Shown here piece by piece: positions 24,509 to 58,922 of a DNA stretch of 64,000 nucleotides; position 1 is the first letter of the stretch; every line of letters starts with the position of its first letter. Source of the stretch: Escherichia phage vB_EcoM_G17; the sequence record MK327931.1. One strand, written 5' to 3'. The notes beneath the pieces were generated by a model, which was not told where the DNA came from, did no database searches, and saw only the letters and a program-made list of their open reading frames with translations. Position numbers and translations under genes: made by a program.

Positions 24509-24509
24509 A

Positions 24510-24937: not shown

Positions 24938-25039
24938 GTGTAGTTCTCCTTATATTCCTTCTATAGTACACCAGTACTGAAAGGATGTCAAGGGTTTTCT
25001 TTATGGGGTAAATATGATATAATGAATAAGGAGGGATTT
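24938..25039. promoter_or_regulatory. divergent promoter region between the small-protein operon (minus) and the MLPF/RCC1-like array (plus)
   Basis: Minus: TTGACA-N17-TACTAT then AAGGAG; plus: TATAAT at about 25016 then AAGGAGGG and ATG at 25040. Confidence 0.55.
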
Positions 25040-26176: not shown

Positions 26177-26182
26177 ATACAG

Positions 26183-26211
26183 GCCAGTACTTGATACTGG
26201 CTTTTCTTTTT
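26183..26211 (+). terminator. Rho-independent terminator after R1 (GCCAGTA-N5-TACTGGC plus T-run)
   Basis: Inverted repeat followed by ttttctttttt; next promoter -10 TATAAT at 26226-26231. Confidence 0.6.
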
Positions 26212-26247
26212 TGTATTAAATATAGTATAATGAATAAGGAGGGAAAT

Positions 26248-27450
26248 ATGTTACCTTTTGGAAGAATGGTTAAGTACGCAAATATTGCACCAGGTCCAGA
26301 ACCTGTAGAGTTCTCAGATGTTTTACAACAACATTATACAAACTGTATGTATCTCCATAACCCAACTAATACTTTATATGGTTATGGTAGTAATAACTTT
26401 TACCAATTTGGTCTTGGGAATTCAGCAGCAGTTTCGTCATTTACAGTACTTGCAAGGAACTGTGCAGCCTTTTGGCTTGGTGTTCAAGGTTCATTGATGA
26501 TTGATTTGGATAATAAAATATACTACACTGGGTCGGTTGGTGCATTTTCTGATTATGGAGATGCAACACCTGTTAATGGTTATTTGACAACATGGACTGA
26601 TGTTACTGTTGCATTTAATAAAATAGGTGTTATGGCTAATATGATCAAGAGTGTATATATAGGTGAAAGTACTAGAATATTATTAACCGATGGTAGAGTA
26701 ATTGCGTGTGGAAGAAATACTAATGGTGAATGTGGCTCTGGTAATAAAAATTCCATCCCTACACTCACAGTTATGACTAATATGGGTGAAGTTACACATA
26801 TGGCATGTTCATTACAAGGAACGCACTATATCAAATCAAATAAAGATGCATGGTTTTGTGGTAAGGATAACTTTGGTGAAAGTGGATGTGGTGGTAGTTT
26901 TGTTGTATATTTGAACAAATTCGTGATTAGTAATGTAGAACATATTAGTACTACATACGATGTTACTTGGTGGTTTACTACTGGTGGGCCTGTATATTAT
27001 AGCGGGGCTAACAGTTCTGGACAAGCTGGTAATGGTACGACTACATCGGTAAATCAGCTAACACCAATTAGGAACACATCGGTCACGGTTGATGTAAGTA
27101 AGTACAGTACTTTTATTTGTCCAAGTAATATGGGAAATGCATCAATTGGTGCACCTATGGCACAATACGCACCATATGTTAGAAGTAGTGGTGCTAACTC
27201 ATATGGTCAAGAAGGTAATGGAACTAATACATTAGTTAGAACTTGGAATATTTTTAATCTTAGTGCAATAAGTGGTGGTTATGACAATGTTCTTATGGCA
27301 TCTAAAGATTGGAGCAGAACCATAATAATTACTAAAGATTATAAATTATATGCATGTGGTGGCTGGAATGGTAGTGGTGGTAGATTACCTGATGGCACTT
27401 ATAGTATTACTACACTAACATTAATGCCAACGCAGTTATGGCAACAATAG
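26248..27450 (+). CDS. MLPF-family RCC1-like repeat protein R2
   Basis: MLPFGRMVKYANIAP; motifs SNNFYQFGLGN, RNTNGECGSGN, ANSYGQEGNGT; start trimmed from 26191. Confidence 0.7.
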   Translation: MLPFGRMVKYANIAPGPEPVEFSDVLQQHYTNCMYLHNPTNTLYGYGSNNFYQFGLGNSAAVSSFTVLARNCAAFWLGVQGSLMIDLDNKIYYTGSVGAFSDYGDATPVNGYLTTWTDVTVAFNKIGVMANMIKSVYIGESTRILLTDGRVIACGRNTNGECGSGNKNSIPTLTVMTNMGEVTHMACSLQGTHYIKSNKDAWFCGKDNFGESGCGGSFVVYLNKFVISNVEHISTTYDVTWWFTTGGPVYYSGANSSGQAGNGTTTSVNQLTPIRNTSVTVDVSKYSTFICPSNMGNASIGAPMAQYAPYVRSSGANSYGQEGNGTNTLVRTWNIFNLSAISGGYDNVLMASKDWSRTIIITKDYKLYACGGWNGSGGRLPDGTYSITTLTLMPTQLWQQ

Positions 27451-27458
27451 GAGGGAAT

Positions 27459-28568
27459 ATGTTACCTTTTGGAAGAATGATTAGGTATGGAAATATTGTC
27501 CCTGGTCCTAAAAAAATAATTAAAGTTGGTGCTTCTACCCAAGGCCAATTCTTATTGACTGATTCACATGATTTATATTACATAGGTAGAAATCAAGGTG
27601 GTGAATCTGGAAATGGTAATACCAACACGGTGTCTTCGTGGACATTAGTAAGTGCAGATGTTTCTAATTTTTTCGTGGGTGATCGTACACTTGTTATTAT
27701 TAAAAATGATAATACGATATGGACATCAGGTCAAACGTACTGGTTCTCATCTTCTACAACTACTTCTTACAGTACTGTATTAGTTGAAAGAACTAATTGG
27801 TTTACCAATGCTATACCAGTAAGTGAAATTGCTAATATTGTATGCACAAATGGTTTAATATTTGTACTTAGCACTAATTCAGTACTCTATGGTGCAGGAG
27901 ATAATGGATATCGTGGTTCTTTGGGTATTGGTTCATCATCAATTTACACATTAACTCAATGTGCTACGAACGTTCGTAAAGTAATGACCAATGCGAATGA
28001 TAGTATGTATCTTACATTAGATAATAAGCTATATAGTTCTGGATGGAATAGTAGTGGGCAGCATGGTACGGGGAACCAAACACAAATTAACACTTGGGGA
28101 TTGCGTAGTTCTGGTGTAATCGATGCAGCCATTGGTGGTAATGCATTAAATTACTATAATGGTACATCATATTTCGTATGTGGTCAAACTCCAAACTTTC
28201 TTAGTTCAGGTACGACTACATTCCGTGCAGTTCCTTTAAGTACTTTGCCTAATAGTTCTCCATTGTTTATGACGAATTCACCTGCCTTAAATACTGCTAC
28301 ACAAATGGTAATTACTAGTACATATCAGAAGGGTGTTGGGGCGAACCGTGGTTTGGGATTAAACAATTCTCAAACTGGTGCTATATATAGTGCTACCAAT
28401 TTACAATTACCCGTTGAAGTTAGTGAGATTAGGGATGTTCTTTTTAGTGATGGTTTGACATCGATATTAACCAAAAATGGAGACGTGTATAGTACTGGAT
28501 CGTATTACGCCATTCCAGGTGCAATCGAGGATGTTGCAGTCTTTACTAAAATTGATTTACCAAAATAA
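27459..28568 (+). CDS. MLPF-family RCC1-like repeat protein R3
   Basis: MLPFGRMIRYGNIVP; motifs RNQGGESGNGN, DNGYRGSLGIG, WNSSGQHGTGN; no terminator between R2 and R3 (co-transcribed). Confidence 0.7.
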   Translation: MLPFGRMIRYGNIVPGPKKIIKVGASTQGQFLLTDSHDLYYIGRNQGGESGNGNTNTVSSWTLVSADVSNFFVGDRTLVIIKNDNTIWTSGQTYWFSSSTTTSYSTVLVERTNWFTNAIPVSEIANIVCTNGLIFVLSTNSVLYGAGDNGYRGSLGIGSSSIYTLTQCATNVRKVMTNANDSMYLTLDNKLYSSGWNSSGQHGTGNQTQINTWGLRSSGVIDAAIGGNALNYYNGTSYFVCGQTPNFLSSGTTTFRAVPLSTLPNSSPLFMTNSPALNTATQMVITSTYQKGVGANRGLGLNNSQTGAIYSATNLQLPVEVSEIRDVLFSDGLTSILTKNGDVYSTGSYYAIPGAIEDVAVFTKIDLPK

Positions 28569-28574
28569 CATAAT

Positions 28575-28604
28575 GCCAGTACTCTGTACTGGCTTTCTTA
28601 TTTG
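28575..28604 (+). terminator. Rho-independent terminator after R3
   Basis: GCCAGTAC-tct-GTACTGGC then T-rich tract. Confidence 0.6.
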
Positions 28605-28638
28605 TATTAAATATAGTATAATGAATAAAGGAGGGAAT

Positions 28639-29808
28639 ATGTTACCTTTTGGAAGAATGATTAAGTACGGAAATATTGCACCTGCTAAACCAAATATTAA
28701 AAAAATACTTGCTAACAACTATAATGTTGCTGTTTTAACAAACAGTGGTGATTTATATGTGCGTGGTGAGAATGCAAATGGTCTTTTGGGTTTAGGTCAC
28801 AAAAATACTGTTACTACATGGACTTATAGTACTTCTGGTGTTCAAGATTTTTGGATGGGAGCCACGACGATAGTTCTTAAGAAAAGCAATGATGAAATAT
28901 GGTACAGTGGAAGTTCAACAACTGTTGGTATGAAAGGGGCAGCAGTATCAATATGGACTTCTGCTATGCCAACATTCGATACATTAACATTACCAATATT
29001 AGATATAGCAGTTAGTTATCAGACTACAAGTGTGTTACTGTCAGACCAAACAATATGGAGTACTGGAGTGGGGTCAGATGGTCAGTTGGGTGATGGGACA
29101 ACAACTAACAATATTGCTGGTAAATTCGTCAAAAGTACTGTTCCGGCCGCAGCAAATCAATTACCTGTTAAATTGTTTGCAAGTAATTTAATGCACGGTT
29201 ATGTTACAAACCAAGGATGGCTATTTTATACAGGAAGAGTAAATGCAGTTACAAGTTCAGGAAGTAAGTTATATACTATATATTATGGTGCTCCTACCAG
29301 CTTAAGAAATACAATTAATATCAAGTACTACACGGAGAATGGTACTTCAATGGCAATGGCAATTGGTACTGATCCAAATGGAAAAACCATCATCGCAAAT
29401 GGCGGTTCGAGAATATTTGGTGCACAAGCAGATGGGACAAATGGTTCTCTCAATGATTATAGAGCATTTGAGGTTCAAACTGCTTCACTAATGCCACCCG
29501 GTGATGTAGTAAGCATTGCTAACAATACTTCATATTATAACCAAGTTATTGCTACAACAGATGGTATATATTGTTGCGGCTACAATCAATCTTCAGAAGC
29601 TGGTATGTTAGGTATTGGTACATCTACCAATGCATTGGTATATACCAAAGCAATCGTGCCTGATGGGTTTGATTATAGTAAGTCGCAGATGGCAGGTGGG
29701 TATAACCGAACTTATATAACTGATGGTAATTTTGTATATAGCACAGGGACAAATGTCACATATGGTGGCGTTAGTAGCTTAGAATTTGTATTAGATTCAC
29801 CAGTTTAA
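28639..29808 (+). CDS. MLPF-family RCC1-like repeat protein R4
   Basis: MLPFGRMIKYGNIAP; motifs ENANGLLGLGH, VGSDGQLGDGT, YNQSSEAGMLGIGT; start trimmed from 28477. Confidence 0.7.
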   Translation: MLPFGRMIKYGNIAPAKPNIKKILANNYNVAVLTNSGDLYVRGENANGLLGLGHKNTVTTWTYSTSGVQDFWMGATTIVLKKSNDEIWYSGSSTTVGMKGAAVSIWTSAMPTFDTLTLPILDIAVSYQTTSVLLSDQTIWSTGVGSDGQLGDGTTTNNIAGKFVKSTVPAAANQLPVKLFASNLMHGYVTNQGWLFYTGRVNAVTSSGSKLYTIYYGAPTSLRNTINIKYYTENGTSMAMAIGTDPNGKTIIANGGSRIFGAQADGTNGSLNDYRAFEVQTASLMPPGDVVSIANNTSYYNQVIATTDGIYCCGYNQSSEAGMLGIGTSTNALVYTKAIVPDGFDYSKSQMAGGYNRTYITDGNFVYSTGTNVTYGGVSSLEFVLDSPV

Positions 29809-29814
29809 ATATAT

Positions 29815-29845
29815 GCCAGTACTCTGTACTGGCATTCTTATTTGT
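29815..29845 (+). terminator. Rho-independent terminator after R4
   Basis: GCCAGTAC-tct-GTACTGGC then attcttatttg. Confidence 0.55.
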
Positions 29846-29879
29846 ATTAAATATAGTATAATGAATAAAGGAGGGAAAT

Positions 29880-31028
29880 ATGTTACCTTTTGCAAGAATG
29901 ATGAATTATGGGAATATTGCCCCTGGTAAGGATAGGCGTTTTAAAATATATTCAAGTGATTCTATGTATCTTCATGATACTTATACTAATAAGTTGTATG
30001 CATCTTCTGCGACGAATTGGGGTACTGGAACAGGTGTAGCATCGAGTAAATTTATTCTTTGTGCAGAGAATGTTAAACGAGTTCTATTGGAAGATAACAG
30101 TAGTAGTTGTCAATTGTATGAAGAGAAAGGTACTGGAAAAGTTTTTATCACTGGTAACACGAAGGCATTCACTGGTGTAACTGATACAAAAACTTTGTGG
30201 ACGGACTGTACTACGTGGATAACATCAGGTGGTATTAATGTTTCTGATATAAAATACATGAGTAGTTTTAATGATATGAAGGTGAATTTGATAACAAACG
30301 ATGGTACGTTGTATTGTTGTGGAGTTAACAATAACTCGAACCTATCATCATTTGGTGATGGTACAAACATTAATTCTTTTAACACATTCAAAAGGGTAGA
30401 TACTATAACTTCGGTTAAAAAGGCAGTTGGTAACATATACCTAAAAGAAGATAATACTTTATGGGGTTGTGGTTTTAACTATTACTATCAGTTAGGTACA
30501 GGTAATCAAACTTCTATTACTGGGGTGACGATGATTGCTTCGGATGTTATAGATTTTGATGTAAGTTATCAAAGTACATTTTTTATTAAATCGGATAATA
30601 ATTTGTACGCTTGTGGTAAACAGTTCGGTGCACAATACGGGAACGAATTTGGCACAGGTGGTACTTCTTCATCTACCGATATACAATACAAAACTCCGAC
30701 ATTATTGAGTTCAGGAGTTTATACTCTATATACTTGTGTTAGTAACATGGCATCACATATAGCTAAAGGTGATGAAGTTCTATACGCATCTGGGTCGAAT
30801 GGATTTGGTCAATTAGGTGTTGGTAATAATATTAATCAGTACTCATATACTCCTTCGTATACTTCGTTTAATAGTTCGTGTAATTTGGTACGCACTCCAT
30901 CTGGTTCACTTATACTTACGGACACTGAGCAATTATATTATTGTGGGTATGCTATGGTAGTAATGGGGGGAATTGCTGGACAAAACATTCTTAGTTATAC
31001 AGAAGTTGATATGTCATTTATACAATGA
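29880..31028 (+). CDS. MLPF-family RCC1-like repeat protein R5
   Basis: MLPFARMMNYGNIAP; motifs FNYYYQLGTGN, SNGFGQLGVGN. Confidence 0.7.
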   Translation: MLPFARMMNYGNIAPGKDRRFKIYSSDSMYLHDTYTNKLYASSATNWGTGTGVASSKFILCAENVKRVLLEDNSSSCQLYEEKGTGKVFITGNTKAFTGVTDTKTLWTDCTTWITSGGINVSDIKYMSSFNDMKVNLITNDGTLYCCGVNNNSNLSSFGDGTNINSFNTFKRVDTITSVKKAVGNIYLKEDNTLWGCGFNYYYQLGTGNQTSITGVTMIASDVIDFDVSYQSTFFIKSDNNLYACGKQFGAQYGNEFGTGGTSSSTDIQYKTPTLLSSGVYTLYTCVSNMASHIAKGDEVLYASGSNGFGQLGVGNNINQYSYTPSYTSFNSSCNLVRTPSGSLILTDTEQLYYCGYAMVVMGGIAGQNILSYTEVDMSFIQ

Positions 31029-31034
31029 TTTAAT

Positions 31035-31063
31035 GCCAGTACACTGTACTGGCTTTCTTATTT
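31035..31063 (+). terminator. Rho-independent terminator after R5
   Basis: GCCAGTAC-act-GTACTGGC then T-rich tract. Confidence 0.6.
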
Positions 31064-31099
31064 GTATTAAATATAGTATAATGAATAAAGGAGGAATTT

Positions 31100-32242
31100 A
31101 TGTTACCTTTTGCAAGAATGATGAATTATGGGAATATTGCACCAGAACCAAAACCTCTATTTAAAAATAGATTACAAGCAAATTATAATACTCGTTTTTA
31201 TTTGCATGTTAATGGTGACTTGTACTGGTATGGTTCATCTTCATTTGGACAAGGTGGTAATGGTTCATTACAATCATCCACCGTATGGACCCGTGTGAAT
31301 AATAATATTGAACGTTACTGGGGTGGTGTTCTTGGTTCCATTGCCATTAAGAATGATGGAACTATTTGGTTCACAGGTGCTAGTATAGTAATGCCACAAA
31401 TCGGAACAAATACAAATGGGGTTTGGATTGATGTAACCCAGTACTTCACTGATTTTGGTGTCAGTGCTGATGATATTGATGGTATTGCTGTTGGGCAGAA
31501 TTTGCGTGTATTTTTAAAAAATGGAAAATGGTTCTACTGTGGTACTGGCGAAGCTGGTGTATTTGGTAACGCGTCAACAGCTAATGTCACATCGTTCAGA
31601 TACAGCACTATAGAAAATGTTAAAAGTTATGGCTGTTCTTTGCTCAGTACTGGGTTAGTACTTGATGATGGCTCCTATTGGTATGCAGGAAATACTGTTG
31701 CTCCTGGTAGTACAAAAACATCAAATATATTAAGTTTTACAAAAGACAATACGATCACCAATGCTATACAAGCTGTAAATACATACCGTACTTCATATAT
31801 ATTTCTTAATGATGGTTCAGTGAAGGTTGCTTCACCAAATGCATATGGTCAAGCTGGTGTAGGTACAGTATCAGCAGTACCAATGAGTACATTAATTCCC
31901 AATTTATCATTCCAAGGTGAAATAGAGTTGGTGGGTGGTTTATCCAACAACGAAGGGAATGGATGTGTTGTTAAAAATAATAATAAGTTATATACTTGTG
32001 GTCGAAATACCTATGGTCTATGTGGTGTTAATCAAACATCCGAAAATATACTAACTTTCACCGAAATGGTTCTTGATGCATTAGAAGGAAGACGAATTTC
32101 AGGCTTCGTAAATGATAATTTCTATTCAATGATAATTGATGAAAATAACAATTTGTATATGTGTGGTTTGGCTGAACTTGGAAATGTTCCAGTCAATAGA
32201 GTTCCAACAAGGGTTCCTGATTCACTTCTACCGTGGAAATAA
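31100..32242 (+). CDS. MLPF-family RCC1-like repeat protein R6
   Basis: MLPFARMMNYGNIAP; motifs SSSFGQGGNGS, PNAYGQAGVGT, RNTYGLCGVN. Confidence 0.7.
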   Translation: MLPFARMMNYGNIAPEPKPLFKNRLQANYNTRFYLHVNGDLYWYGSSSFGQGGNGSLQSSTVWTRVNNNIERYWGGVLGSIAIKNDGTIWFTGASIVMPQIGTNTNGVWIDVTQYFTDFGVSADDIDGIAVGQNLRVFLKNGKWFYCGTGEAGVFGNASTANVTSFRYSTIENVKSYGCSLLSTGLVLDDGSYWYAGNTVAPGSTKTSNILSFTKDNTITNAIQAVNTYRTSYIFLNDGSVKVASPNAYGQAGVGTVSAVPMSTLIPNLSFQGEIELVGGLSNNEGNGCVVKNNNKLYTCGRNTYGLCGVNQTSENILTFTEMVLDALEGRRISGFVNDNFYSMIIDENNNLYMCGLAELGNVPVNRVPTRVPDSLLPWK

Positions 32243-32248
32243 TATAAT

Positions 32249-32278
32249 GCCAGTATCAAGTACTGGCATTTCTTTTTG
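32249..32278 (+). terminator. Rho-independent terminator after R6
   Basis: GCCAGTA-tcaag-TACTGGC then T-rich tract. Confidence 0.6.
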
Positions 32279-32312
32279 ATTAAATATAGTATAACAAATA
32301 AAGGAGGGAATT

Positions 32313-33500
32313 ATGTTACCTTTTGCAAGAATGATGAATTATGGGAATATTGCCCCAGTACCACTTCAAATTAAGAAAATAATCCCAACTGATTTAGATG
32401 TTGTGGTTCTGTATACGGATGGTCAACTATATGCACGTGGGAATAATAGTTTTGGGAAATTCGGTAGAGGAAACAACACTGCATTAAAATCATGGACATT
32501 AATTAGAGAAAACGTTAACGATTGCTGGCTTACACAAGGAACTTTATTAGTAAAAGACAATGACTCAAATTATTATTACTGTGGATATGGTAGTCATATT
32601 GGTTTATCAACTAGTACTACTACGTTTTTAAGTTATAACCAATATATTCAAAATTTGTACACACAAAGTTCAAGTACTTCAATTAAACAGATGTATGGAG
32701 GTACTACGTGGTTTACTTTCTTAATGGACAATAATACAATATGGAGTACAGGGTGGAACAGTGCTAGACAATTCGCCGATGGAACGGGAACTACTTATGA
32801 AATAACCGATGGTTCATTTGTAAAAGCGGTCACACCTAATGTTGATATTGCACAAATACAGTCAACAAATAACTGTGTATTGTTGTTTGATAAACAAAAT
32901 AATTTATATATTGGTGGTGTTACATCCGGTATAAGTTCCGCGACTACATGGACTTCATATAATCAATATACTTTATATCAACCAAATACAACATACACAA
33001 AAACGTTACAATACACAGGATGCTCAACTGGTGCAGTAAGTGCTTTAGTTGAAAATCCAAATACAGGAGCACGTCAGTTCCTTGTCGGTGGGTTAGCTAA
33101 TAATGGGGCATGGGGAAATAACACTACATCTAGCTCTGTTAATGGAGTTTTAGGAAATAACAGTACGACGTTACCACCCGGTACTTTGTATTCAATTCAT
33201 ACTGGATACCCACCACAATCTAGTATACTAATTACGAGTACTGGTGTATATGCAACTGGTTTAAATGCCAGTAGTTATGCTGGTTCATTGGGTATTGGTA
33301 CTAGTGCAACTGTTGGTAAGTTTACTGCATGTCCAATGCCTACACAAATAACATATTCTATGTATGATAAAATAAAAATATATAGAGGTTCATATCGTAC
33401 ATTTCTAACTGATATGAAAAATATATATTCAACCGGAACTTATGATGATGGTGGTCCTAGTACAACTAGATATGTACTAGATACACCCCGACAATTATAA
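32313..33500 (+). CDS. MLPF-family RCC1-like repeat protein R7
   Basis: MLPFARMMNYGNIAP; motifs NNSFGKFGRGN, NASSYAGSLGIGT. Confidence 0.7.
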   Translation: MLPFARMMNYGNIAPVPLQIKKIIPTDLDVVVLYTDGQLYARGNNSFGKFGRGNNTALKSWTLIRENVNDCWLTQGTLLVKDNDSNYYYCGYGSHIGLSTSTTTFLSYNQYIQNLYTQSSSTSIKQMYGGTTWFTFLMDNNTIWSTGWNSARQFADGTGTTYEITDGSFVKAVTPNVDIAQIQSTNNCVLLFDKQNNLYIGGVTSGISSATTWTSYNQYTLYQPNTTYTKTLQYTGCSTGAVSALVENPNTGARQFLVGGLANNGAWGNNTTSSSVNGVLGNNSTTLPPGTLYSIHTGYPPQSSILITSTGVYATGLNASSYAGSLGIGTSATVGKFTACPMPTQITYSMYDKIKIYRGSYRTFLTDMKNIYSTGTYDDGGPSTTRYVLDTPRQL

Positions 33501-33507
33501 TATAATA

Positions 33508-33537
33508 GCCAGTACTCAGTACTGGCTTTTCTTTTTG
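33508..33537 (+). terminator. Rho-independent terminator after R7
   Basis: GCCAGTAC-tca-GTACTGGC then ttttctttttg. Confidence 0.6.
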
Positions 33538-33572
33538 TATTAAATATATTATAATGAATAAAGGAGGGAATT

Positions 33573-34310
33573 ATGTTACCTTTTGGAAGAATGATTAAGT
33601 ACGGGAATGAAATTGAATATAAGCCACATGGTGAACAATTAATCACGACAATAGGAACAACACAATTTACAGTTCCTGCTGGCGTTACCGAAATATCAGT
33701 ATGTGTTATTTCGCCGGGTGGTCAACGTGGTGCTGGCGGCGGCTTATCGTGGCGTAATAATATTCCGGTTACTAGTGGTGAGTACTTAAGTGTTTCTCTT
33801 ACGCATACCAACACTACTACACCAGTTGAAAACGGTTTATATCGTGGAACTGAAAAACTATGTGTTAGCTTCACTGGTGCATATACGGTTGGTGGACTAG
33901 GTGGAAAAGCTGCTAACGCTATTAATGATGGTGGTGGTAATGGTGGCAATACTGGTGTAAGTGGTGGTGCAGTCATTGGTGGTGGTGCTGGTGGCTACAC
34001 AGGTAAAGGTGGTAACGGAGATGCAATCACTGGTGAAAATGGTGCTGGCGGCGGCGGGGGCGGTGGTACATTCTATAATACCTCGTTCATTGGTACGGGT
34101 GGTGGTACTGGTATCATTGTTCAAGGTGCTAATGGTATTGGTGGTAGCTACGGTGGTTCATATAATGGTGGTGCTGGTAGTGGTGGTGCTGGTAAGATGT
34201 ATGGTGGTGGTGGTAGTATATGGGATAATTCTTCTTATACGGCTGCTGGTGGTGGTGCTGTGCGAATAATATGGGGAAATGGGAGATATTATCCTAACAA
34301 TTCAGTATAA
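33573..34310 (+). CDS. MLPF-family glycine-rich protein R8 (245 aa)
   Basis: Same promoter/RBS cassette and N-terminus MLPFGRMIKYGN, but body is Gly-rich (GGAGGYTGKGGNGDAITGENGAGGGGGGG...). Confidence 0.65.
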   Translation: MLPFGRMIKYGNEIEYKPHGEQLITTIGTTQFTVPAGVTEISVCVISPGGQRGAGGGLSWRNNIPVTSGEYLSVSLTHTNTTTPVENGLYRGTEKLCVSFTGAYTVGGLGGKAANAINDGGGNGGNTGVSGGAVIGGGAGGYTGKGGNGDAITGENGAGGGGGGGTFYNTSFIGTGGGTGIIVQGANGIGGSYGGSYNGGAGSGGAGKMYGGGGSIWDNSSYTAAGGGAVRIIWGNGRYYPNNSV

Positions 34311-34317
34311 AATATAG

Positions 34318-34347
34318 GCCAGTACAGAGTACTGGCTTTTCTTTTTG
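34318..34347 (+). terminator. Rho-independent terminator after R8
   Basis: GCCAGTAC-aga-GTACTGGC then ttttctttttg. Confidence 0.6.
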
Positions 34348-34380
34348 ATTAAATATAGTATAATGAATAAAGGAGGAAAT

Positions 34381-43883: not shown

Positions 43884-43916
43884 ATTATAGCAAAAAGGGC
43901 TGACCGAAGTCAACCC
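43884..43916 (-). promoter_or_regulatory. hybrid terminator/promoter cassette: hairpin GGGTTGAC-ttcg-GTCAGCCC plus T-run whose stem carries -35 TTGACT; -10 TATAAT at 43884-43889 (rc)
   Basis: Read on minus strand; 18 nt spacer; one of about 13 copies of the ctgaccgaagtcaacc element. Confidence 0.6.
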
Positions 43917-43923
43917 TTTTGTT

Positions 43924-45042
43924 TTAGATAATTTGTACTTCACCATAGATCTGCACGATTTGCTTTCCTGGATTCTCTTCAATGAGTTTAAGGAAAGATT
44001 TCAATGCTCCAATATGGTCTTCATAATACGCAATACGAATGAAGTTATATCCATTTTTTATTGCGTATTCTGTTTTGATTTTATCGTGTTTTTTCCTCAT
44101 AAGTCCGTTTCCCCATCCTGATTCACGTTCTTCAAAGTGATTACTACCATCATATTCAAATAACGTATTAATATCACGAATATAAAAATCATATGGAAGT
44201 TTTGATTTATTTTTTAAATCAGGAAATGTTTTCTCTCTTTCAGTAACAAACATTCCTCTCAAAAACTCTTTACAATCATTATGACCAAATGAGTGTGTTT
44301 CTAATTGGGAACAACATCCACACTTTTGTGCTTGTTTACTAGTAAACGCATAATAGTCTTGATTACACTCGTGTCCTTTATCACATATATATTTTACATA
44401 ATAACGACCATTTGATTTCTTGTAAACTTCTTTTAATGTATATCCTAGTTCATTACAGCGTGTGTTAGCAATTGTTTCACGCATTTCAGGTGTTATAAAA
44501 TATCTAACGTTCATTGATGTTTTTGTAATTATATCATTTATTCTTCGTGGTTGTGTAAATCCATCGGAATATGTGAATTTAATATATGACATTATCCCAT
44601 TGTCTAAATGTTCATTTTCATATATATAGCATCCTCTTTCCTCAAGAGAACCCAATTTGGTTACATAGTAATAATAATTTTCATCTGTATAGGTAAATGA
44701 TGGCTTGAATTTATTGTTTGTTATTTTTTCAAGCTTTGTTTTTAAACCAGTTATTTTATAATTATCATACAATACCCCATTATACATAATCAGTAAATTG
44801 TTATTACTATTTCCGTTTTTACCAAACTCACGTGATGATTTAACTGATAATCCAATAATAGTAATATTGTCAATATCTTTGTTTTTTAATTTTGCTTCTA
44901 TGTCATCAACATGATCCTTAGCAGTGAGTCCTTTTGAAACCCTTTTTATATCTTCAGGCTTCATCCATTCAAAACGCATACCAAGTTCTTCATGAAAATA
45001 AACTTTTTCACCATCTTCATTTAAATAATACTGTTCAAACAT
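43924..45042 (-). CDS. putative endonuclease (DUF559/Vsr-like C-terminal motif) in AT-rich island
   Basis: C-terminal FEYDGSNHF...D..K...G.NFIRI resembles the E-x-DG-x-x-H...R/K...G-x-V-R pattern of DUF559-type endonucleases; strongly AT-rich. Confidence 0.45.
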   Translation of the reverse strand: MFEQYYLNEDGEKVYFHEELGMRFEWMKPEDIKRVSKGLTAKDHVDDIEAKLKNKDIDNITIIGLSVKSSREFGKNGNSNNNLLIMYNGVLYDNYKITGLKTKLEKITNNKFKPSFTYTDENYYYYVTKLGSLEERGCYIYENEHLDNGIMSYIKFTYSDGFTQPRRINDIITKTSMNVRYFITPEMRETIANTRCNELGYTLKEVYKKSNGRYYVKYICDKGHECNQDYYAFTSKQAQKCGCCSQLETHSFGHNDCKEFLRGMFVTEREKTFPDLKNKSKLPYDFYIRDINTLFEYDGSNHFEERESGWGNGLMRKKHDKIKTEYAIKNGYNFIRIAYYEDHIGALKSFLKLIEENPGKQIVQIYGEVQII

Positions 45043-45271
45043 TACTTAATACTCCTTTCCAGTACTGAACCCGTCCAGCACCATTAATCTTAGCTTTAAT
45101 CTTATCTTTTTCGACAAGACCTTCTTTGAAATCGATGGAAGTATTATCGCACTGAATTACATCTAAGTCAAGTACTTCTTGTGTACTTAATGAAGTATTA
45201 TCTGCAATTTGTTGTAAAGTAATTACATCAGTACCGAAGAATTCAGCTAATCGTATAAAAGATAGTTTCAT
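45035..45271 (-). CDS. hypothetical protein (78 aa)
   Basis: Track ORF; 8-nt overlap with downstream gene. Confidence 0.5.
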   Translation of the reverse strand: MKLSFIRLAEFFGTDVITLQQIADNTSLSTQEVLDLDVIQCDNTSIDFKEGLVEKDKIKAKINGAGRVQYWKGVLSNV

Positions 45272-45336
45272 TTGTTACCTCTTGTGTTGATGAAATAATT
45301 ATAGCAAAAAGGGCTGACCGAAGTCAACCCTTTATG

Positions 45337-45696
45337 TTATTCTAATTCACTCATAGTACTAATAGTTAATCCCATTTCTTCTGCAATGTTGCATAACATA
45401 CCAACTGCATTACGAAGAATATCAGTGTTGTCCACCGATAATGATGAGTTTTCATTTACAGTTGAAGACTCAATGTAGTACTCAAAATAACGAGAAGTTG
45501 AACGCACAACTTTAACACCTTCATAGTTCTGTAGTTCAGAGTTGATACGCTCGATGAGCGAATCTTCCAGTACTCGATAGTCACCATTCATTCCACGTTT
45601 CCATCCATCAGCAGGACGGAAATAAAAAGTTTTTGTACGTTGAATTGTTGAGATTGTTAGTGGGTTGTATTCTGCGATTTCACTTAAAGATGCCAT
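45337..45696 (-). CDS. hypothetical protein (119 aa)
   Basis: Track ORF; terminator/promoter cassette at 45300-45333. Confidence 0.55.
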   Translation of the reverse strand: MASLSEIAEYNPLTISTIQRTKTFYFRPADGWKRGMNGDYRVLEDSLIERINSELQNYEGVKVVRSTSRYFEYYIESSTVNENSSLSVDNTDILRNAVGMLCNIAEEMGLTISTMSELE

Positions 45697-46551: not shown

Positions 46552-46618
46552 GTATTCATCCTCTCGTCTTGATGAAATAATTATAGCAAAAAGGGCTGAC
46601 CGAAGTCAACCCTTTTCT

Positions 46619-46888
46619 TTATTCAATGATCCCCAACTTCACAATCTCATACCCGTCCAGATAGCCGTAGGAACACTCAGGTGTTTCATAAGATGAACCA
46701 TCATGGATGCCCTGGCATTGACTTTTGGAATTCTCAAGCAATCGTTGCAGTACTGATACGTCATCAAGAACGTAATACAAGTTAGCATATAGGTCAGTTA
46801 CAATACAGTACTCCAACATATCAAATGTATCAATCGAAATTTCAACCTTAGCAAATCGTTTCTTTTCTTTATTATACAGTGCGTACAT
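46619..46888 (-). CDS. hypothetical protein (89 aa)
   Basis: Track ORF 46619..46906 trimmed to MYALYNK, placing the ATG just after the stop of the upstream kinase-like gene. Confidence 0.45.
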   Translation of the reverse strand: MYALYNKEKKRFAKVEISIDTFDMLEYCIVTDLYANLYYVLDDVSVLQRLLENSKSQCQGIHDGSSYETPECSYGYLDGYEIVKLGIIE

Positions 46889-47261: not shown

Positions 47262-47269
47262 ATTTTTAA

Positions 47270-47521
47270 TTAGAAGAACACAAACCAAGTCCAGAACAAA
47301 TTCCACATTACAAATAAAGACATAGTGGTTTTATGTACAATATCAGCAGTACTGGTCCATCCTCCACCGTGTCCTATTCCATTTATGAATAGAACTAAGA
47401 ACAAGATACCATTTACTACAATAGTACATACTAAGTACACAAATACATTCCATGCAAGTCCAGGGGATACTAAAGTAAATGGTAAAACTATTAGTAGTAT
47501 TAGAACTAATAATATTTTCAT
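47270..47521 (-). CDS. small membrane protein (83 aa)
   Basis: Hydrophobic. Confidence 0.5.
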   Translation of the reverse strand: MKILLVLILLIVLPFTLVSPGLAWNVFVYLVCTIVVNGILFLVLFINGIGHGGGWTSTADIVHKTTMSLFVMWNLFWTWFVFF

Positions 47522-47560
47522 TTATCGCCTCACTTAATTAACGTGACATATCACGTAATA

Positions 47561-54947: not shown

Positions 54948-55520
54948 TCATAAATCACGAACAATATTCATTAAACACAATTTAGGTTTTATAGCATTCA
55001 ACACCCATATGCATTCTTTGTAAGTAGCTATTATATCATCTAAATGCTCAGTTACAATGCTTTCTTGAAAATATTCTTCATCATTGAGCTTTGCTAATTT
55101 AGTAACATCACACGTAGGCACTATAGGTCTGGATTGTACACCCATTCCATTATTGATATTAGTGAAATGTACAAAATGGTACTTCACAACACCTTTATCT
55201 AGATTTACTATACATGACAAGTTTTCCAACTCAGTTAGTTCTTTACTACAAGTAACATTAATGAAACCAGTATTATAGGCTCTATAATCATCTACTGATA
55301 TCTCAAAATCATTACGCTGAAATATAAGTGAAATGAGTTTGTCCAGTGGTTTTACATTCATATATTTTAATGAATTTACGTATGATACTTCAATCTTAGA
55401 TGAAATTATTTTTTTACTAAGTGCAGTCAATTCTTTATTAGATTTACCTGTTAATACTATAGGTTTAAACCTAGAACTCTTATTTTTCTTTGATACTTTA
55501 AAACGACCTTTACGATTCAT
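54948..55520 (-). CDS. hypothetical protein (190 aa)
   Basis: Track ORF 54948..55544 trimmed to MNRKGRF (GAGGA SD). Confidence 0.55.
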   Translation of the reverse strand: MNRKGRFKVSKKNKSSRFKPIVLTGKSNKELTALSKKIISSKIEVSYVNSLKYMNVKPLDKLISLIFQRNDFEISVDDYRAYNTGFINVTCSKELTELENLSCIVNLDKGVVKYHFVHFTNINNGMGVQSRPIVPTCDVTKLAKLNDEEYFQESIVTEHLDDIIATYKECIWVLNAIKPKLCLMNIVRDL

Positions 55521-56732: not shown

Positions 56733-57165
56733 ATATTACCTCATGTGTTTCTCTTTTACTTTGTCGGAACTCATCCTTTGCTTCCTTAACTGACATGATA
56801 CGAACTAATTTAGCACTACCGCAATAGTACTGAACCTGATTACGACCAATGTCTACATGGTGGTCTGGAACTTCATATACAGATATAGCAAACCCAGCAC
56901 GATGCAATTTACCTAAGTCCATAGTGAAGAATCTGAACAAATCTTTCAAACTTTGACAGCCAAATACCCATCCACTTTTGATTGAATAGATCCCATCCTC
57001 AGTTGGTTCAGGTTGGAATTGAGAAGGTGTAGTCATGAGCATACGGTCAAATCCATTTTTAGTACTGTATCTGGTTGAATACCGTGCAAACGGACCTACA
57101 GTTCGTGCAGGATCTAAGTTAGGTTCAATGTAACTAAATTTAAGTTCAAAACGATATACATACAT
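56725..57165 (-). CDS. hypothetical protein (146 aa)
   Basis: Track ORF; terminator/promoter cassette upstream (57205-57232). Confidence 0.55.
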   Translation of the reverse strand: MYVYRFELKFSYIEPNLDPARTVGPFARYSTRYSTKNGFDRMLMTTPSQFQPEPTEDGIYSIKSGWVFGCQSLKDLFRFFTMDLGKLHRAGFAISVYEVPDHHVDIGRNQVQYYCGSAKLVRIMSVKEAKDEFRQSKRETHEVIYG

Positions 57166-57219
57166 AATTAAAATCCTCTAATTTATTAAGAGAATTATAA
57201 CAAAAAAGGCTGACCGAAG

Positions 57220-57411
57220 TCAACCTTTGTTTTGAAGTTCTTGAACTAATTGTCGTACTTCGTTAATATTTTTACACTGCTTTACAGTGAAGTAATCATA
57301 CTTACGACCATAGGTTCTTGGGTCATCACCTTCCATATACTGCTGCACATCAAAGATTTGTAAGTAGGGATGCTGCATAACACGAATATTATCACTTTGA
57401 TAAATCAACAT
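57220..57411 (-). CDS. hypothetical protein (63 aa)
   Basis: Track ORF 57220..57465 trimmed to MLIYQSD (AAGGA SD). Confidence 0.45.
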   Translation of the reverse strand: MLIYQSDNIRVMQHPYLQIFDVQQYMEGDDPRTYGRKYDYFTVKQCKNINEVRQLVQELQNKG

Positions 57412-57415
57412 AATA

Positions 57416-57766
57416 TCAATCCTTATATTTACACAAGCCACCAAAACTAGTTTCTTTAGCACCACGACGCATCATAACTAATTTAGCATATTGTGTGCCA
57501 TTACTATCTTCATATACATCTACTTCAATAAACGCTAAGAAGTTAGGGTCTGTGTCGTTAGAAAACTCAGTGAAGCTAATGTCGCCTACTGTATGCTCTT
57601 TAACAAACGTATATGATTGTCCATCAATATATACAATATCTCGATCGTCACTATCACCTTGATAGATATGTTTAATATTACCATCGGTACAAACTAAACC
57701 TTCCAATGGTTCAGCATATGACAATCCACACATTAACATACATACAAAAAATAAAATAATTTTCAT
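57416..57766 (-). CDS. secreted protein (signal peptide), 116 aa
   Basis: MKIILFFVCMLMCGLSYAEP. Confidence 0.55.
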   Translation of the reverse strand: MKIILFFVCMLMCGLSYAEPLEGLVCTDGNIKHIYQGDSDDRDIVYIDGQSYTFVKEHTVGDISFTEFSNDTDPNFLAFIEVDVYEDSNGTQYAKLVMMRRGAKETSFGGLCKYKD

Positions 57767-57768
57767 GA

Positions 57769-58146
57769 TTATTTTCCTCCAACGTTAAGTGATTTCTTGT
57801 ACTGATATTCTTTATAAGTACTATACCATATATCACCAACGTAAATCAAGTACCACGTAGCAGGATAAAGAGCCAATCCAGTACTGATATATACGAACTT
57901 TTGGTCAAGGACATCAAATACATACAGAAGGAAAGTTACTCCCATAATGCAAGAACAAATTAACCACAAGTTATAAGCAATCGAATCGCAAGCAAAAATA
58001 GAATCAAGCTTAGAAATTAGGACATATTTGTTTGTTAAAATGAAATGAATTACTGCAACTAAACAATATCCTGCCATAAAAATAGAAATTAAAAAAGACA
58101 GAATAATTGGAATATTCAACAACAAAAGTAAAATAGTGTTTACCAT
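57769..58146 (-). CDS. small membrane protein (125 aa)
   Basis: Hydrophobic. Confidence 0.55.
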   Translation of the reverse strand: MVNTILLLLLNIPIILSFLISIFMAGYCLVAVIHFILTNKYVLISKLDSIFACDSIAYNLWLICSCIMGVTFLLYVFDVLDQKFVYISTGLALYPATWYLIYVGDIWYSTYKEYQYKKSLNVGGK

Positions 58147-58157
58147 TTTTTTAAGTC

Positions 58158-58517
58158 CTATATTTCACAGTGTAAGTTCAATTTATCTATATCTAGGTCA
58201 CGGCGTACCGATGAGTCCAAGTAAATTACTATATAGATATCACCATTACCAGTTCTTGGGTCTACAATTAATATTACGTTTGCTAATGTACCAGAATCAT
58301 CTCTATAAGTCGAGATTTTTTTATTACCGATAATACTTTCTACTTTAAAACGATAAATCACACCATCAACAACTATATTTTTACCATTTCTAGGGTCGTT
58401 AGTCAATACATGCCACGTTCCCTTAGTACTACGACAATATGTTTCTGCTGCTGCACCATAACTAAAACATGAAAATAATGCACACACAAGTGCTATTAAT
58501 TTTATATAACTCTTCAT
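58158..58517 (-). CDS. secreted protein (signal peptide), 119 aa
   Basis: MKSYIKLIALVCALFSCFSYGAAAETYC. Confidence 0.55.
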   Translation of the reverse strand: MKSYIKLIALVCALFSCFSYGAAAETYCRSTKGTWHVLTNDPRNGKNIVVDGVIYRFKVESIIGNKKISTYRDDSGTLANVILIVDPRTGNGDIYIVIYLDSSVRRDLDIDKLNLHCEI

Positions 58518-58595
58518 AACAAACCTCTAACGAGAAATACTTCTGTACTATATATATGTACAGAAGTATTTAATACTATAGAGATATTTTCACTG

Positions 58596-58922
58596 TTACA
58601 TCTTATTCGTGAACTTGAATTTGATAATATCAATCCAAATTTTAACATTTCCTGCAAATAGTGCTTTGATTAGCCACATAATTGCAACAAAGTTCTCAAC
58701 TAAATCCAAAGTTTTAACTACTGCACCGAGTGGGAAGATAAAACTCAAAACCCATACAATTACTGAAACCACAACGACTGTATAGAAAATACGCACAATC
58801 GGTGAATCAAGCATAAACAACTCAGAGAACTCTTTTTTATCATTATCATCAGTAATAAAGCATTCGTAAACCAGAAGCCAAATCAGAATTAAAGACGGAA
58901 TTGAAATTAGTACTGATAGCAT
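58596..58922 (-). CDS. small membrane protein (108 aa)
   Basis: Hydrophobic; consensus promoter upstream (about 58960-59000). Confidence 0.55.
   Translation of the reverse strand: MLSVLISIPSLILIWLLVYECFITDDNDKKEFSELFMLDSPIVRIFYTVVVVSVIVWVLSFIFPLGAVVKTLDLVENFVAIMWLIKALFAGNVKIWIDIIKFKFTNKM

What the first reader, a model, noticed from the sequence alone, without database searches (positions are those of the whole stretch)
43924..45042. AT-rich islands carrying an endonuclease-like gene and a Lys/Asn-rich gene: likely mobile insertions
The segment 43924-45042 (putative DUF559/Vsr-like endonuclease with C-terminal EYDGSNHF...G.NFIRI) and the segment 39300-40200 (220 aa K/N/I-rich protein convergent with the array end) are visibly more AT-rich than their surroundings and have distinct codon usage. 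Free-standing homing-endonuclease-like genes commonly populate phage genomes; here one sits immediately downstream of the P-loop ATPase gene.
Basis: partly seen in the sequence, partly recalled or inferred. Interest (0 to 1): 0.5.

Follow-up and report, generated by a model that had tools for sequence, protein, structure and literature searches.

The report
Homing endonuclease gene in jumbo phage
The AT-rich 372-codon gene is a selfish "homing endonuclease" gene sitting in a hotspot of a giant E. coli phage where related phages carry different such genes or none.

Summary

The gene starts on the stop codon of a conserved 78-aa gene (gp130) and ends at a repeated terminator-promoter cassette. 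At this junction, relatives carry at least six other endonuclease-like ORFs, a frameshifted one, a decayed one, or nothing.

The gp130+gp129 pair is bracketed by two copies of that cassette. Phage SP27 has one copy and neither gene.

Sharanji and JP4 differ at 3 positions over 1,514 bp spanning the gene; the median for windows of that length is 29.

So the reading of a free-standing homing endonuclease gene is supported.

The second island (gp119, 39535-40197) is single-copy in all 34 matching phage records (all Escherichia or Salmonella phages; every one inspected is an Asteriusvirus) and has typical codon usage. It is not a mobile insertion.

Overall: a new member of a known kind, of low-to-moderate interest.

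The parts
43924..45042 (-). gp129 (Sharanji_gp129, WNN14417.1, annotated 'hypothetical protein'): a 372-aa free-standing homing-endonuclease-like gene.
44023..44250 (-). Vsr-like (EDxHD / DUF559-like) nuclease domain, about aa 265-340. Conserved residues are E270, D285, E296, D298, H302, D320 and K323.
43927..44022 (-). Highly conserved C-terminal tail (aa 341-372, ...EDHIGALKSFLKLIEENPGKQIVQIYGEVQII), shared almost unchanged by homologues whose N-terminal parts are unrelated.
   Evidence: Alignments. The 3' 153 nt are 86% identical to the otherwise unrelated ELP-22 gene at the same site.
44311..44493 (-). CapR / treble-clef-like zinc-finger DNA-binding module (aa 184-244, C220...H224...C241..C244). 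Two upstream units (about aa 40-106 and 120-172) have the same predicted helix-strand-strand-helix pattern but lack the metal ligands.
   Evidence: hhalign of CapR units against the gp129 orthologue profile gives E 8.9e-5, probability 60%, at residues 184-244. Homologues carry Pfam CapR, DUF4379 and DUF723. The two degenerate units are inferred from structure only.
44945..45042 (-). 5' leader (first 98 nt, about aa 1-33, MFEQYYLNEDGEKVYFHEELGMRFEWMKPEDI), shared with endonuclease genes that have a different nuclease domain.
   Evidence: The first 98 nt are 88.8% identical to the PBECO4 gene at the same site, which then diverges completely. P0023 and P0006 share the same leader.
45035..45271 (-). 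gp130, a conserved 78-aa gene of unknown function. Its last codons overlap the gp129 start (ATGTTTGA), and its 3' end supplies the AAGGAG ribosome-binding site for gp129. It is the upstream landmark of the insertion site.
   Evidence: Single copy in 28 Asteriusvirus records at 81-100% aa identity. No Pfam or NCBIfam family; PHROG 34150 of unknown function. The AF2 single-sequence model is unusable (pLDDT 46.5).
43852..43923 (-). Terminator-promoter cassette copy A (PeSL-like). It has the stem-loop GGGTTGAC-TTCG-GTCAGCCC plus a T5 run, with the -35 hexamer TTGACT inside the stem, then 18 nt, an extended -10 TGCTATAAT, a ribosome-binding site and the ATPase start.
   Evidence: Direct repeat found and aligned. 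RNA fold -17.6 kcal/mol, z -5.2. Promoter scan scores 11 of 12.
45268..45338 (-). Terminator-promoter cassette copy B, 89% identical to copy A, upstream of gp130.
   Evidence: (-18.9 kcal/mol, z -5.0). Phage SP27 has a single copy that matches both A and B, and lacks gp130 and gp129.
43581..45095 (.). Tract nearly identical between Sharanji and phage JP4 (3 differences in 1,514 bp). It spans the 5' end of the ATPase gene, cassette A, all of gp129 and the last codons of gp130. It is a candidate co-conversion or recent-transfer tract.
   Evidence: The median is 29 differences per 1,514-bp window. Only 1.4% of windows have 3 or fewer, and they fall in just two regions of the 37.8 kb aligned.
43085..43855 (-). 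gp128, a 256-aa P-loop ATPase. It is the conserved gene next to the insertion site, transcriptionally downstream of gp129.
   Evidence: Pfam AAA-type hits, of which only PF00004 (AAA, 24.0 bits against a cut-off of 21.2) passes its curated cut-off; PHROG 1250, which is annotated as unknown function. Present next to the site in all relatives examined.
It is a conserved backbone gene and not part of any mobile element.
   Evidence: PHROG 34359, unknown function.

Best explanation
gp129 is a free-standing homing endonuclease gene of the Vsr-like ('EDxHD') kind. It occupies a fixed intergenic landing site in the early-gene region of an Asteriusvirus jumbo phage.

Proposed mechanism. The protein would bind DNA through N-terminal zinc-finger-type modules and cut it with a C-terminal Vsr-fold nuclease. 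During mixed infection with a relative that lacks the gene, it would cut that genome near the junction between gp130 and the terminator-promoter cassette. Repair would then copy gp129 and some flanking sequence from the Sharanji allele.

Expression. The gene is expressed from the sigma-70-type promoter of the cassette upstream of gp130. It is translationally coupled to gp130.

A second process acts on the same locus. Homologous recombination between the two flanking terminator-promoter cassettes deletes, or possibly inserts, the whole gp130+gp129 unit. The AT-richness is a shared property of the endonuclease genes that occupy this site.

What is shown: the fold, the conserved catalytic-type residues, the site-specific presence/absence/replacement pattern, the flanking repeats, and the near-identical tract shared with JP4.

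What is inferred: DNA cleavage, the target, actual homing, and the direction of the repeat-mediated event.

For: (2) Conserved residues. E270, D285, E296, D298, H302, D320 and K323 are invariant or nearly so across homologues. The D-to-H spacing of 17 equals that between D196 and H213 in I-Bth0305I.

(3) Distribution. The full-length gene occurs in only 3 of the related phages. gp130 and the ATPase gene are conserved.

(4) Same junction, many occupants. All begin at ...TTAAGTAA|TG and end just before AAAAGGGTTGAC:
- 372 aa in Sharanji and JP4; 371 aa in vB_Ec-M-J; 474 aa in ELP-22; 547 aa in CRJP21. All four have a Vsr-like C-terminus.
- 379 aa in PBECO4; 487 aa in 121Q and UB; 628 aa in slurp01 and phAPEC6. 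These have a different C-terminus (PHROG 681).
- A frameshifted copy in E9.1 and a fragmented copy in WPEC5.
- An empty site in Salmonella phage SD-15_S21.
- The 72%-identical metagenomic homologue P0002 also sits directly after a 78-aa gene.

(5) Flanking repeats. Two 73-bp direct repeats, 89% identical, bracket gp130+gp129. SP27 has one copy and neither gene. Its left flank is 99.84% identical to JP4 up to the repeat. EC.P1 has a larger deletion that ends at the same cassette copy upstream of the ATPase gene.

(6) Repeat family. The repeat occurs 13 times in the window, all on the - strand, against 0.01 expected. It folds as a strong hairpin and carries TTGACT-18-TATAAT.

(7) Sharanji and JP4 differ at 3 positions in 1,514 bp across the gene, against a median of 29.

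(8) All endonuclease-like ORFs at this site are AT-rich, with GC 0.24-0.32.
Against: No biochemical evidence exists for cleavage or homing by this protein or any close homologue.

Sequence searches find no Pfam family for gp129 itself. They find no PDB sequence relative even with a profile. Assignment to the EDxHD family therefore rests on a predicted structure and on motif spacing, not on a superposition I could inspect.

The N-terminal DNA-binding assignment is only moderately supported (hhalign probability 60%).

The near-identical tract with JP4 is one of two such tracts in 38 kb. Ordinary mosaic recombination could produce it.

The only clean empty site that retains gp130 comes from one set of Salmonella phage genomes from a single study.

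The gene could be intact but no longer active.
Confidence: 0.78

Rival explanations
1. gp129 is a passive passenger. The presence/absence polymorphism arises only from recombination between the repeated terminator-promoter cassettes (PeSL-type modular shuffling), with no nuclease-driven homing. The nuclease might be inactive or serve another role.
For: The SP27 allele is exactly a repeat-to-repeat loss. EC.P1 has a larger deletion ending at a cassette, and the extra 203-aa gene in JP4 abuts one. Cassettes are abundant in the region. Non-nuclease ORFs are shuffled the same way in T4-type phages (PMC2839356, PMC4122927).
Against: The upstream boundary of the variable segment is not at a cassette. 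It lies within the last codons of gp130, at the same nucleotide for several unrelated endonuclease genes. Cassette recombination cannot explain the replacement of one endonuclease gene by another, or the SD-15_S21 allele that keeps gp130 but has no endonuclease gene. Catalytic-type residues are invariant across the family, which argues for selection on nuclease activity.
Confidence: 0.1
2. gp129 is a domesticated or weaponised nuclease rather than a selfish element. Examples would be a DNA-binding regulator derived from a homing endonuclease (like the satellite protein CapR), or a nuclease used against competing phages or satellites (like ICP1 Odn).
For: CapR-type zinc-finger domains and homing-endonuclease scaffolds have been co-opted in this way in the ICP1/PLE system (PMC8096241 and PMC10448857). 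The gene lies among early, host-takeover-type genes behind a strong sigma-70-type promoter.
Against: The distribution is sporadic and replaceable. Frameshifted and decayed copies occur at the same site (E9.1 and WPEC5). This is the life cycle expected of a selfish gene, not of a function the phage depends on. Retained catalytic residues argue against a purely DNA-binding derivative.
Confidence: 0.08
3. Both AT-rich islands are recently acquired foreign DNA from low-GC donors, as the first reader proposed for the pair. On this view gp119 is also a mobile insertion.
For: gp119 has the lowest GC of all ORFs of at least 100 aa in the window. The nuclease domain of gp129 has its most numerous relatives in phages of low-GC Firmicutes.
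Against: gp119 is single-copy in all 34 phage-collection records that match it (all Escherichia or Salmonella phages; every one inspected is an Asteriusvirus). Its divergence tracks the clades. Its synonymous codon usage is typical (z 0.15). No flanking repeats lie near it. Its low GC lies in codon positions 1 and 2.
Confidence: 0.03

Closest known systems
I-Bth0305I and the 'EDxHD' (Vsr-like) homing endonuclease family, including the free-standing Hef-type genes of T4-related phages (PMC3239194)
   Different: No sequence-level match to I-Bth0305I was detected. The N-terminal region carries CapR / treble-clef-type zinc-finger modules, not the NUMOD-2 / helix-turn-helix repeats described for I-Bth0305I. 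It is free-standing between genes rather than inside a group I intron. It has an extra, very conserved 32-aa C-terminal tail. Activity is untested.
[quoted passage not shown] The T4 details are from my own knowledge and from the citation in PMC3239194.
   Same: It is an intergenic insertion between conserved genes, sporadically distributed among close relatives. Different endonuclease genes occupy the same site in different phages. There is flanking sequence identity consistent with co-conversion.
   Different: The phage lineage is different (an Asteriusvirus jumbo phage), and so is the nuclease family compared with the GIY-YIG seg and HNH mob genes. No cross or cleavage data exist here.
T5orf172 homing endonucleases with CapR/DUF723/DUF4379 zinc-finger repeats in ICP1 and other phages; domain shuffling between such genes (PMC10448857)
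   Same: The same kind of repeated zinc-finger DNA-binding modules is present in this gene family. There is mosaicism between endonuclease genes: the 5' 98 nt are shared with the PBECO4 gene and the 3' 153 nt with the ELP-22 gene.
   Different: In gp129 the nuclease head is Vsr-like, not T5orf172. The alternative occupants (PBECO4, 121Q and slurp01 types) have a C-terminus whose motifs look T5orf172/GIY-YIG-like to me. Pfam does not confirm this; they fall in PHROG 681 'endonuclease'.
PeSLs, the composite promoter-early/stem-loop cassettes that mediate modular shuffling in T4-type phages (PMC2839356, PMC4122927)
   Same: It combines a near-consensus sigma-70 promoter, a stable stem-loop terminator that overlaps the -35 box (one of the described subclasses), an AT-rich upstream stretch, and a ribosome-binding site with start codon downstream. 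It is repeated in intergenic positions of an early region. It lies at indel breakpoints between close relatives.
   Different: It is found in an Asteriusvirus, not a T4-type phage. I found no paper that describes such cassettes in this group, and the Sharanji paper does not mention promoters. Promoter and terminator activity and mini-circle formation are untested.
E. coli Vsr endonuclease and DUF559 proteins (for example NGO0050, PDB 3hrl)
   Different: Vsr is a stand-alone mismatch-repair nickase of cellular genomes. gp129 is a multidomain phage protein with DNA-binding modules and a mobile-gene distribution. It has no Pfam DUF559 or Vsr hit itself.

Membership tests
EDxHD (Vsr-like) homing endonucleases | Catalytic domain with the Vsr-type variant of the restriction-endonuclease fold | tested here: met
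EDxHD (Vsr-like) homing endonucleases | Conserved composite motif E...D...H...D (I-Bth0305I E170, D196, H213, D222 = Vsr E25, D51, H69, D97) | tested here: inconclusive
   E270, D285, H302 and D320, plus E296, are invariant or nearly invariant in 20-23 homologues. The D285-H302 spacing of 17 equals D196-H213. The residue-by-residue equivalence is inferred from order and spacing. I could not inspect a structural superposition.
EDxHD (Vsr-like) homing endonucleases | Detectable sequence homology to family members or to Vsr | tested here: not met
   phmmer and a profile of the nuclease domain against all PDB sequences found nothing meaningful at E<=10. There is no Pfam hit for gp129. Indirect support only: a Klebsiella phage Muenster homologue is annotated 'homing endonuclease EDxHD' and an Enterococcus phage homologue 'VSR endonuclease'.
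EDxHD (Vsr-like) homing endonucleases | N-terminal DNA-binding region fused to the C-terminal nuclease | tested here: met
   A zinc-finger module at aa 184-244 lies N-terminal to the nuclease at about aa 265-340. The module type (CapR / treble clef) differs from the NUMOD-2 repeats of I-Bth0305I.
EDxHD (Vsr-like) homing endonucleases | Site-specific double-strand cleavage of the gene-less allele, and homing | not testable with these tools
   This requires cleavage assays and phage crosses.
Free-standing phage homing endonuclease gene (operational definition) | Sporadic presence among close relatives at a fixed site between conserved genes, with an empty allele | tested here: met
   The empty allele is in SD-15_S21. 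The junction is identical to the nucleotide in several phages.
Free-standing phage homing endonuclease gene (operational definition) | Co-conversion of flanking markers | tested here: inconclusive
   Sharanji and JP4 differ at 3 positions in 1,514 bp across the gene and adjoining flanks, against a median of 29. One other such tract exists in 38 kb, so ordinary mosaicism is not excluded.
Free-standing phage homing endonuclease gene (operational definition) | Signs of the invasion-decay-loss cycle at the site | tested here: met
   The site holds intact, replaced, frameshifted (E9.1, 449+193 aa), fragmented (WPEC5) and absent states.
PeSL (promoter-early stem-loop) cassettes | Sigma-70-like promoter combined with a stable stem-loop terminator in one short intergenic motif, followed by a ribosome-binding site and start codon | tested here: met
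   TTGACT-18-TGCTATAAT scores 11 of 12. The hairpin folds at -17.6 to -20.4 kcal/mol, z -5 to -6, and is followed by T5. Alignment. The subclass with the stem overlapping the -35 box is described in PMC2839356.
PeSL (promoter-early stem-loop) cassettes | Many dispersed copies that coincide with indel breakpoints between close relatives | tested here: met
   13 copies in 64 kb against 0.01 expected, all on the - strand. The SP27 and EC.P1 deletion breakpoints lie at copies, and both of JP4's extra-gene insertions sit next to one.
PeSL (promoter-early stem-loop) cassettes | Occurrence in T4-type phages; demonstrated promoter and terminator activity and mini-circle formation | not testable with these tools
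   The host genome is an Asteriusvirus, so I call the element PeSL-like. The activities need reporter assays and inverse PCR.
HNH endonuclease (the annotation given to homologues and to PHROG 559) | HNH / beta-beta-alpha-metal nuclease domain | tested here: not met
   There is no Pfam HNH hit. The nuclease fold matches Vsr-type enzymes, not HNH. The 'HNH endonuclease' label on vB_Ec-M-J gp562 and PHROG 559 appears to be a misnomer.

The most novel reading that the evidence does not exclude
The junction between the gp130 3' end and the terminator-promoter cassette is a shared landing pad that has been invaded serially. The invaders are chimeric endonuclease genes built by swapping unrelated nuclease heads (Vsr-like against a second, possibly T5orf172-like type) and zinc-finger arrays onto a common 5' leader and a common 3' tail. 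In addition, the whole gp130+endonuclease unit moves as a cassette-bounded module, as a PeSL-type mini-circle would. This would combine homing with regulatory-cassette shuffling in a jumbo-phage lineage where neither has been described.
Probability: 0.3. Interest if true: 0.5.

Novelty: new member of a known kind. Interest (0 to 1): 0.3.

Why it matters
The practical gain is annotation. Sharanji gp129 is labelled 'hypothetical', and its homologues are mislabelled 'HNH endonuclease'. Both should be called Vsr-like (EDxHD-type) homing endonuclease genes.

The locus also shows one insertion site in many states across sequenced relatives: intact, replaced, chimeric, frameshifted, decayed, empty and excised. 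That makes it a convenient natural system for studying turnover of homing endonuclease genes and nuclease-domain swapping.

The flanking composite terminator-promoter repeats suggest that the PeSL mode of modular shuffling, so far described for T4-type phages, also operates in Asteriusvirus jumbo phages. None of this would surprise a specialist in phage mobile elements.

Tried and rejected
- Sequence-only family assignment failed. Pfam and NCBIfam gave nothing for gp129. phmmer and profile searches of PDB sequences gave only spurious Kelch-design and ankyrin hits.
- I suspected that the alternative occupants of the site (PBECO4, 121Q and slurp01 types) have a T5orf172/GIY-YIG nuclease, from motifs such as FYIH..KAGIT. 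Pfam did not confirm this. I therefore report only that they belong to a different PHROG (681).
- A single-sequence AF2 model of gp130 was unusable (pLDDT 46.5), so I make no functional claim for gp130.
- The built-in terminator scan did not list the cassette hairpins, because their A/U-extended stems absorb the T-run. Folding showed them directly.
- I rejected gp119 as a mobile insertion.
- I considered that gp130 might be part of the mobile element rather than a resident gene. Its single-copy conservation in 28 genomes and the SD-15_S21 allele (gp130 without an endonuclease gene) favour a resident gene. However, gp130 is lost together with the endonuclease gene in SP27.
- Raw Karlin codon bias was misleading because it depends on gene length. 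I replaced it with a bootstrap that conditions on amino-acid content.
Full report
**Source and observation**

The window matches Escherichia phage Sharanji (OR545507.1) at 100% identity. Sharanji is an Asteriusvirus with a 350-kb genome, and window position 43000 corresponds to record position 58777.

The ORF at 43924-45042 (- strand, 372 aa) is Sharanji_gp129, annotated 'hypothetical protein'. The ORF at 39535-40197 (- strand, 220 aa) is gp119.

Both are AT-rich:
- gp129 has GC 0.291 against 0.358 for the window. Only 2.1% of equal-length windows are as low.
- gp119 has GC 0.255, and only 0.16% of windows are as low.

I tested codon usage with a bootstrap that conditions on each gene's amino-acid content.
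- gp129 is shifted towards A/T at third positions (GC3 0.199 against 0.280 expected, z 3.3). Eleven of the 60 ORFs deviate more.
- The most deviant is the neighbouring ATPase gene, in the opposite direction (GC3 0.396). This sharpens the visible contrast.
- gp119 has typical codon usage (z 0.15). Its low GC sits in codon positions 1 and 2, because 48% of its residues are K, N, I, F or Y.

The Sharanji paper gives a genome GC of 34.1%. It does not mention homing endonucleases or promoters (PMC11895373).

**What gp129 is**

Pfam, NCBIfam and PDB sequence searches return nothing for gp129. PHROGs places it in families annotated 'HNH endonuclease' (559, 7e-24), 'homing endonuclease' (9084, 4e-16) and 'intron encoded nuclease' (7140).

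A search of 5.8 billion proteins found 23 relatives. Their alignment shows a very conserved C-terminal part of about 120 residues joined to variable N-terminal parts. The variable parts carry Pfam CapR, DUF4379 (treble-clef zinc finger) and DUF723 repeats.

Other restriction-fold nucleases follow. Foldseek also ranks Vsr first.

In the family, E270, D285, E296, D298, H302, D320 and K323 are invariant or nearly so. The I-Bth0305I paper defines the EDxHD family by E170, D196, H213 and D222, with an extra acidic residue in between (PMC3239194). The gp129 residues occur in the same order, and the D-to-H spacing is 17 in both proteins. I infer this equivalence; I did not read it from a superposition.

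A profile of CapR-type repeat units aligns to gp129 residues 184-244, which carry C220, H224, C241 and C244 (E 8.9e-5, probability 60%). Two upstream units have the same predicted secondary-structure pattern but no metal ligands.

Against predicted viral structures, 209 proteins match at E<=0.001. They include proteins named homing endonuclease, group I intron protein, DUF559 protein and treble-clef zinc-finger protein, from phages and giant viruses. The architecture is therefore widespread and already associated with mobile introns. The 'HNH' label on homologues is not supported by the fold.

**The locus in relatives**

On the coding strand the gene order is gp131 (119 aa), gp130 (78 aa), gp129, then the gp128 ATPase.

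gp130 is single-copy and 81-100% identical in 28 Asteriusvirus records. The gp129 start codon overlaps the end of gp130 (ATGTTTGA), and an AAGGAG motif inside gp130 lies 9 nt upstream of it.

At the same junction (...TTAAGTAA|TG...) other phages carry different large ORFs:
- With a Vsr-like C-terminus (PHROGs 559 and 9084): a 60%-identical version in vB_Ec-M-J, a 474-aa gene in ELP-22 and a 547-aa gene in CRJP21.
- With a different C-terminus (PHROG 681 'endonuclease'): 379 aa in PBECO4, 487 aa in 121Q and UB, and 628 aa in slurp01 and phAPEC6. I suspect this C-terminus is T5orf172-like, but Pfam does not confirm it.
- Degenerate states: a frameshifted slurp01-type gene in E9.1 (449+193 aa), and fragments in several reading frames in WPEC5.

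Salmonella phage SD-15_S21 has gp130 followed directly by the intergenic cassette and no endonuclease gene. A 72%-identical metagenomic homologue also sits directly after a 78-aa gene and upstream of the 256-aa ATPase gene. There, another zinc-finger ORF lies on the opposite strand in between. A 44%-identical homologue lies in a different context.

The genes are mosaic. The first 98 nt of gp129 are 89% identical to the PBECO4 gene, and its last 153 nt are 86% identical to the ELP-22 gene, with nothing shared in between. All occupants of the site are AT-rich, with GC 0.24-0.32.

**The flanking repeats**

A self-comparison showed that the intergenic stretch 43852-43923 is 89% identical to 45268-45338. 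It is also similar to several other intergenic stretches.

On the coding strand the consensus is AAAGGGTTGACTTCGGTCAGCCCTTTTTGCTATAAT...GAGG...ATG. This comprises:
- a hairpin with a UUCG loop and a U5 tail (-17.6 to -20.4 kcal/mol, z -5 to -6);
- a 5' arm that contains a TTGACT -35 box;
- 18 nt further on, an extended -10 TGCTATAAT (11 of 12 matches).

The 18-nt core occurs 13 times in the window, always on the - strand, against 0.01 expected.

This is the architecture described for PeSLs in T4-type phages, including the subclass in which the stem overlaps the -35 box. PeSLs are reported there to mediate indels by recombination and to form mini-circles (PMC2839356, PMC4122927).

Evidence that the cassettes lie at indel breakpoints here:
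- SP27 has a single copy that aligns to both Sharanji copies, and it lacks gp130 and gp129. The difference is exactly one repeat plus the two genes, 1,416 bp.
- The SP27 left flank is 99.84% identical to JP4 right up to the repeat. The right flank is 97.6% identical. SP27 also shares the ribosome-binding-site variant seen only in Sharanji and JP4. This suggests loss from a gene-bearing ancestor.
- EC.P1 has a larger deletion that joins the ATPase cassette to denV.
- JP4 has an extra 203-aa gene next to cassette B and an extra HNH gene next to the cassette at 46594.

I found no paper describing such cassettes in the RaK2/121Q group.

**Recent transfer**

Sharanji and JP4 differ at 3 positions between 43581 and 45095. 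This tract spans the 5' end of the ATPase gene, cassette A, gp129 and the last codons of gp130. Identity drops to about 95-96% on both sides.

Across the 37.8 kb aligned, the median is 29 differences per 1,514 bp. Only two regions reach 3 or fewer. This fits a co-conversion or recent-transfer tract but does not prove one.

**The second island**

gp119 is present once in all 34 records of the phage collection that match it (all Escherichia or Salmonella phages; every one inspected is an Asteriusvirus). Identity is 97-99% in close relatives, 84-89% in two others, and 45% or 32% in more distant clades. It has no flanking cassette and no family assignment beyond PHROG 34359. It is a conserved, fast-evolving backbone gene and not a mobile insertion.

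**Verdict**

The best explanation is a free-standing Vsr-like (EDxHD-type) homing endonuclease gene. It sits in a recurrently invaded site next to a PeSL-like cassette, and cassette-to-cassette recombination accounts for loss of the whole two-gene module.

Cleavage, target and homing are inferred, not shown. This is a new member of a known kind, and interest is low to moderate.

Noticed in passing
window 1463-1480, 4215-4232, 7484-7501, 10772, 43898, 45312, 46011, 46594, 51089, 52174, 53783, 53966, 57208 (all - strand): A dispersed family of terminator-promoter hairpins with core GGTTGACTTCGGTCAGCC. Three copies at about 3-kb spacing near the window start carry a variant, GATTGACTCCGGTCAGTC, with compensatory changes in the stem. 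The copy at 46011 is truncated.
   Followed up: partly
window 40239-43019 (- strand): A run of eight adjacent small ORFs (104-141 aa), gp120-gp127. They are hydrophobic, with apparent transmembrane segments, and look like a tandem paralogue array. The last two (42340-43019) are also AT-rich, with GC 0.28-0.30. JP4 and SP27 show about 79% identity between neighbouring members.
   Followed up: no
window about 24000-39283 (+ strand): An array of RCC1-like repeat genes (Pfam RCC1-like domain hits, below the curated cut-offs, for the one member scanned, 37908-39077). The array ends in a truncated 66-aa copy at 39083-39283. Copy number differs between close relatives: record spans are about 750 bp or more longer in several phages.
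   Followed up: partly
It contains a 190-aa ORF (54948-55520, -) with no Pfam family.
   Followed up: partly
window 43085-43855: The P-loop ATPase gene gp128 has the most deviant synonymous codon usage of 60 ORFs in the window (GC3 0.396 against 0.289 expected, z 5.7), in the GC-rich direction.
   Followed up: no
window 46594-46627 and L004 5770-6183: JP4 carries an extra 137-aa 'HNH endonuclease' gene next to the cassette upstream of denV. UB, vB_Ec-M-J and apparently EC.P1 do too; Sharanji lacks it. This is a second endonuclease insertion site that abuts a cassette.
   Followed up: partly
window 45320-45342 and L004 3843-4454: JP4 has an extra 203-aa gene of unknown function (no Pfam or PHROG hit) inserted next to cassette B, between gp130 and gp131.
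   Followed up: partly
window 57043-58919: A second tract nearly identical between Sharanji and JP4 (3 or fewer differences per 1,514 bp), adjacent to the cassette at 57208. Its cause was not examined.
   Followed up: no
L010 1573-1839 (Salmonella phage SD-15_S21): In the allele without an endonuclease gene, the gp130 reading frame runs on through the cassette hairpin and stops in the TATAAT box, giving an 88-aa product. In the other phages the inserted gene supplies the gp130 stop codon.
   Followed up: partly
L017 3552-4529 (metagenome contig SRR25434965_284841): A related uncultured phage has, between the gp129 homologue and the ATPase gene, a further 325-aa zinc-finger (DUF4379) ORF on the opposite strand and an 89-aa ORF. 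The hotspot can therefore hold two endonuclease-like genes at once.
   Followed up: no
window 47268-47556: A stretch of about 290 bp that does not align between Sharanji and JP4, covering the 83-aa ORF at 47270-47521. It was not examined.
   Followed up: no
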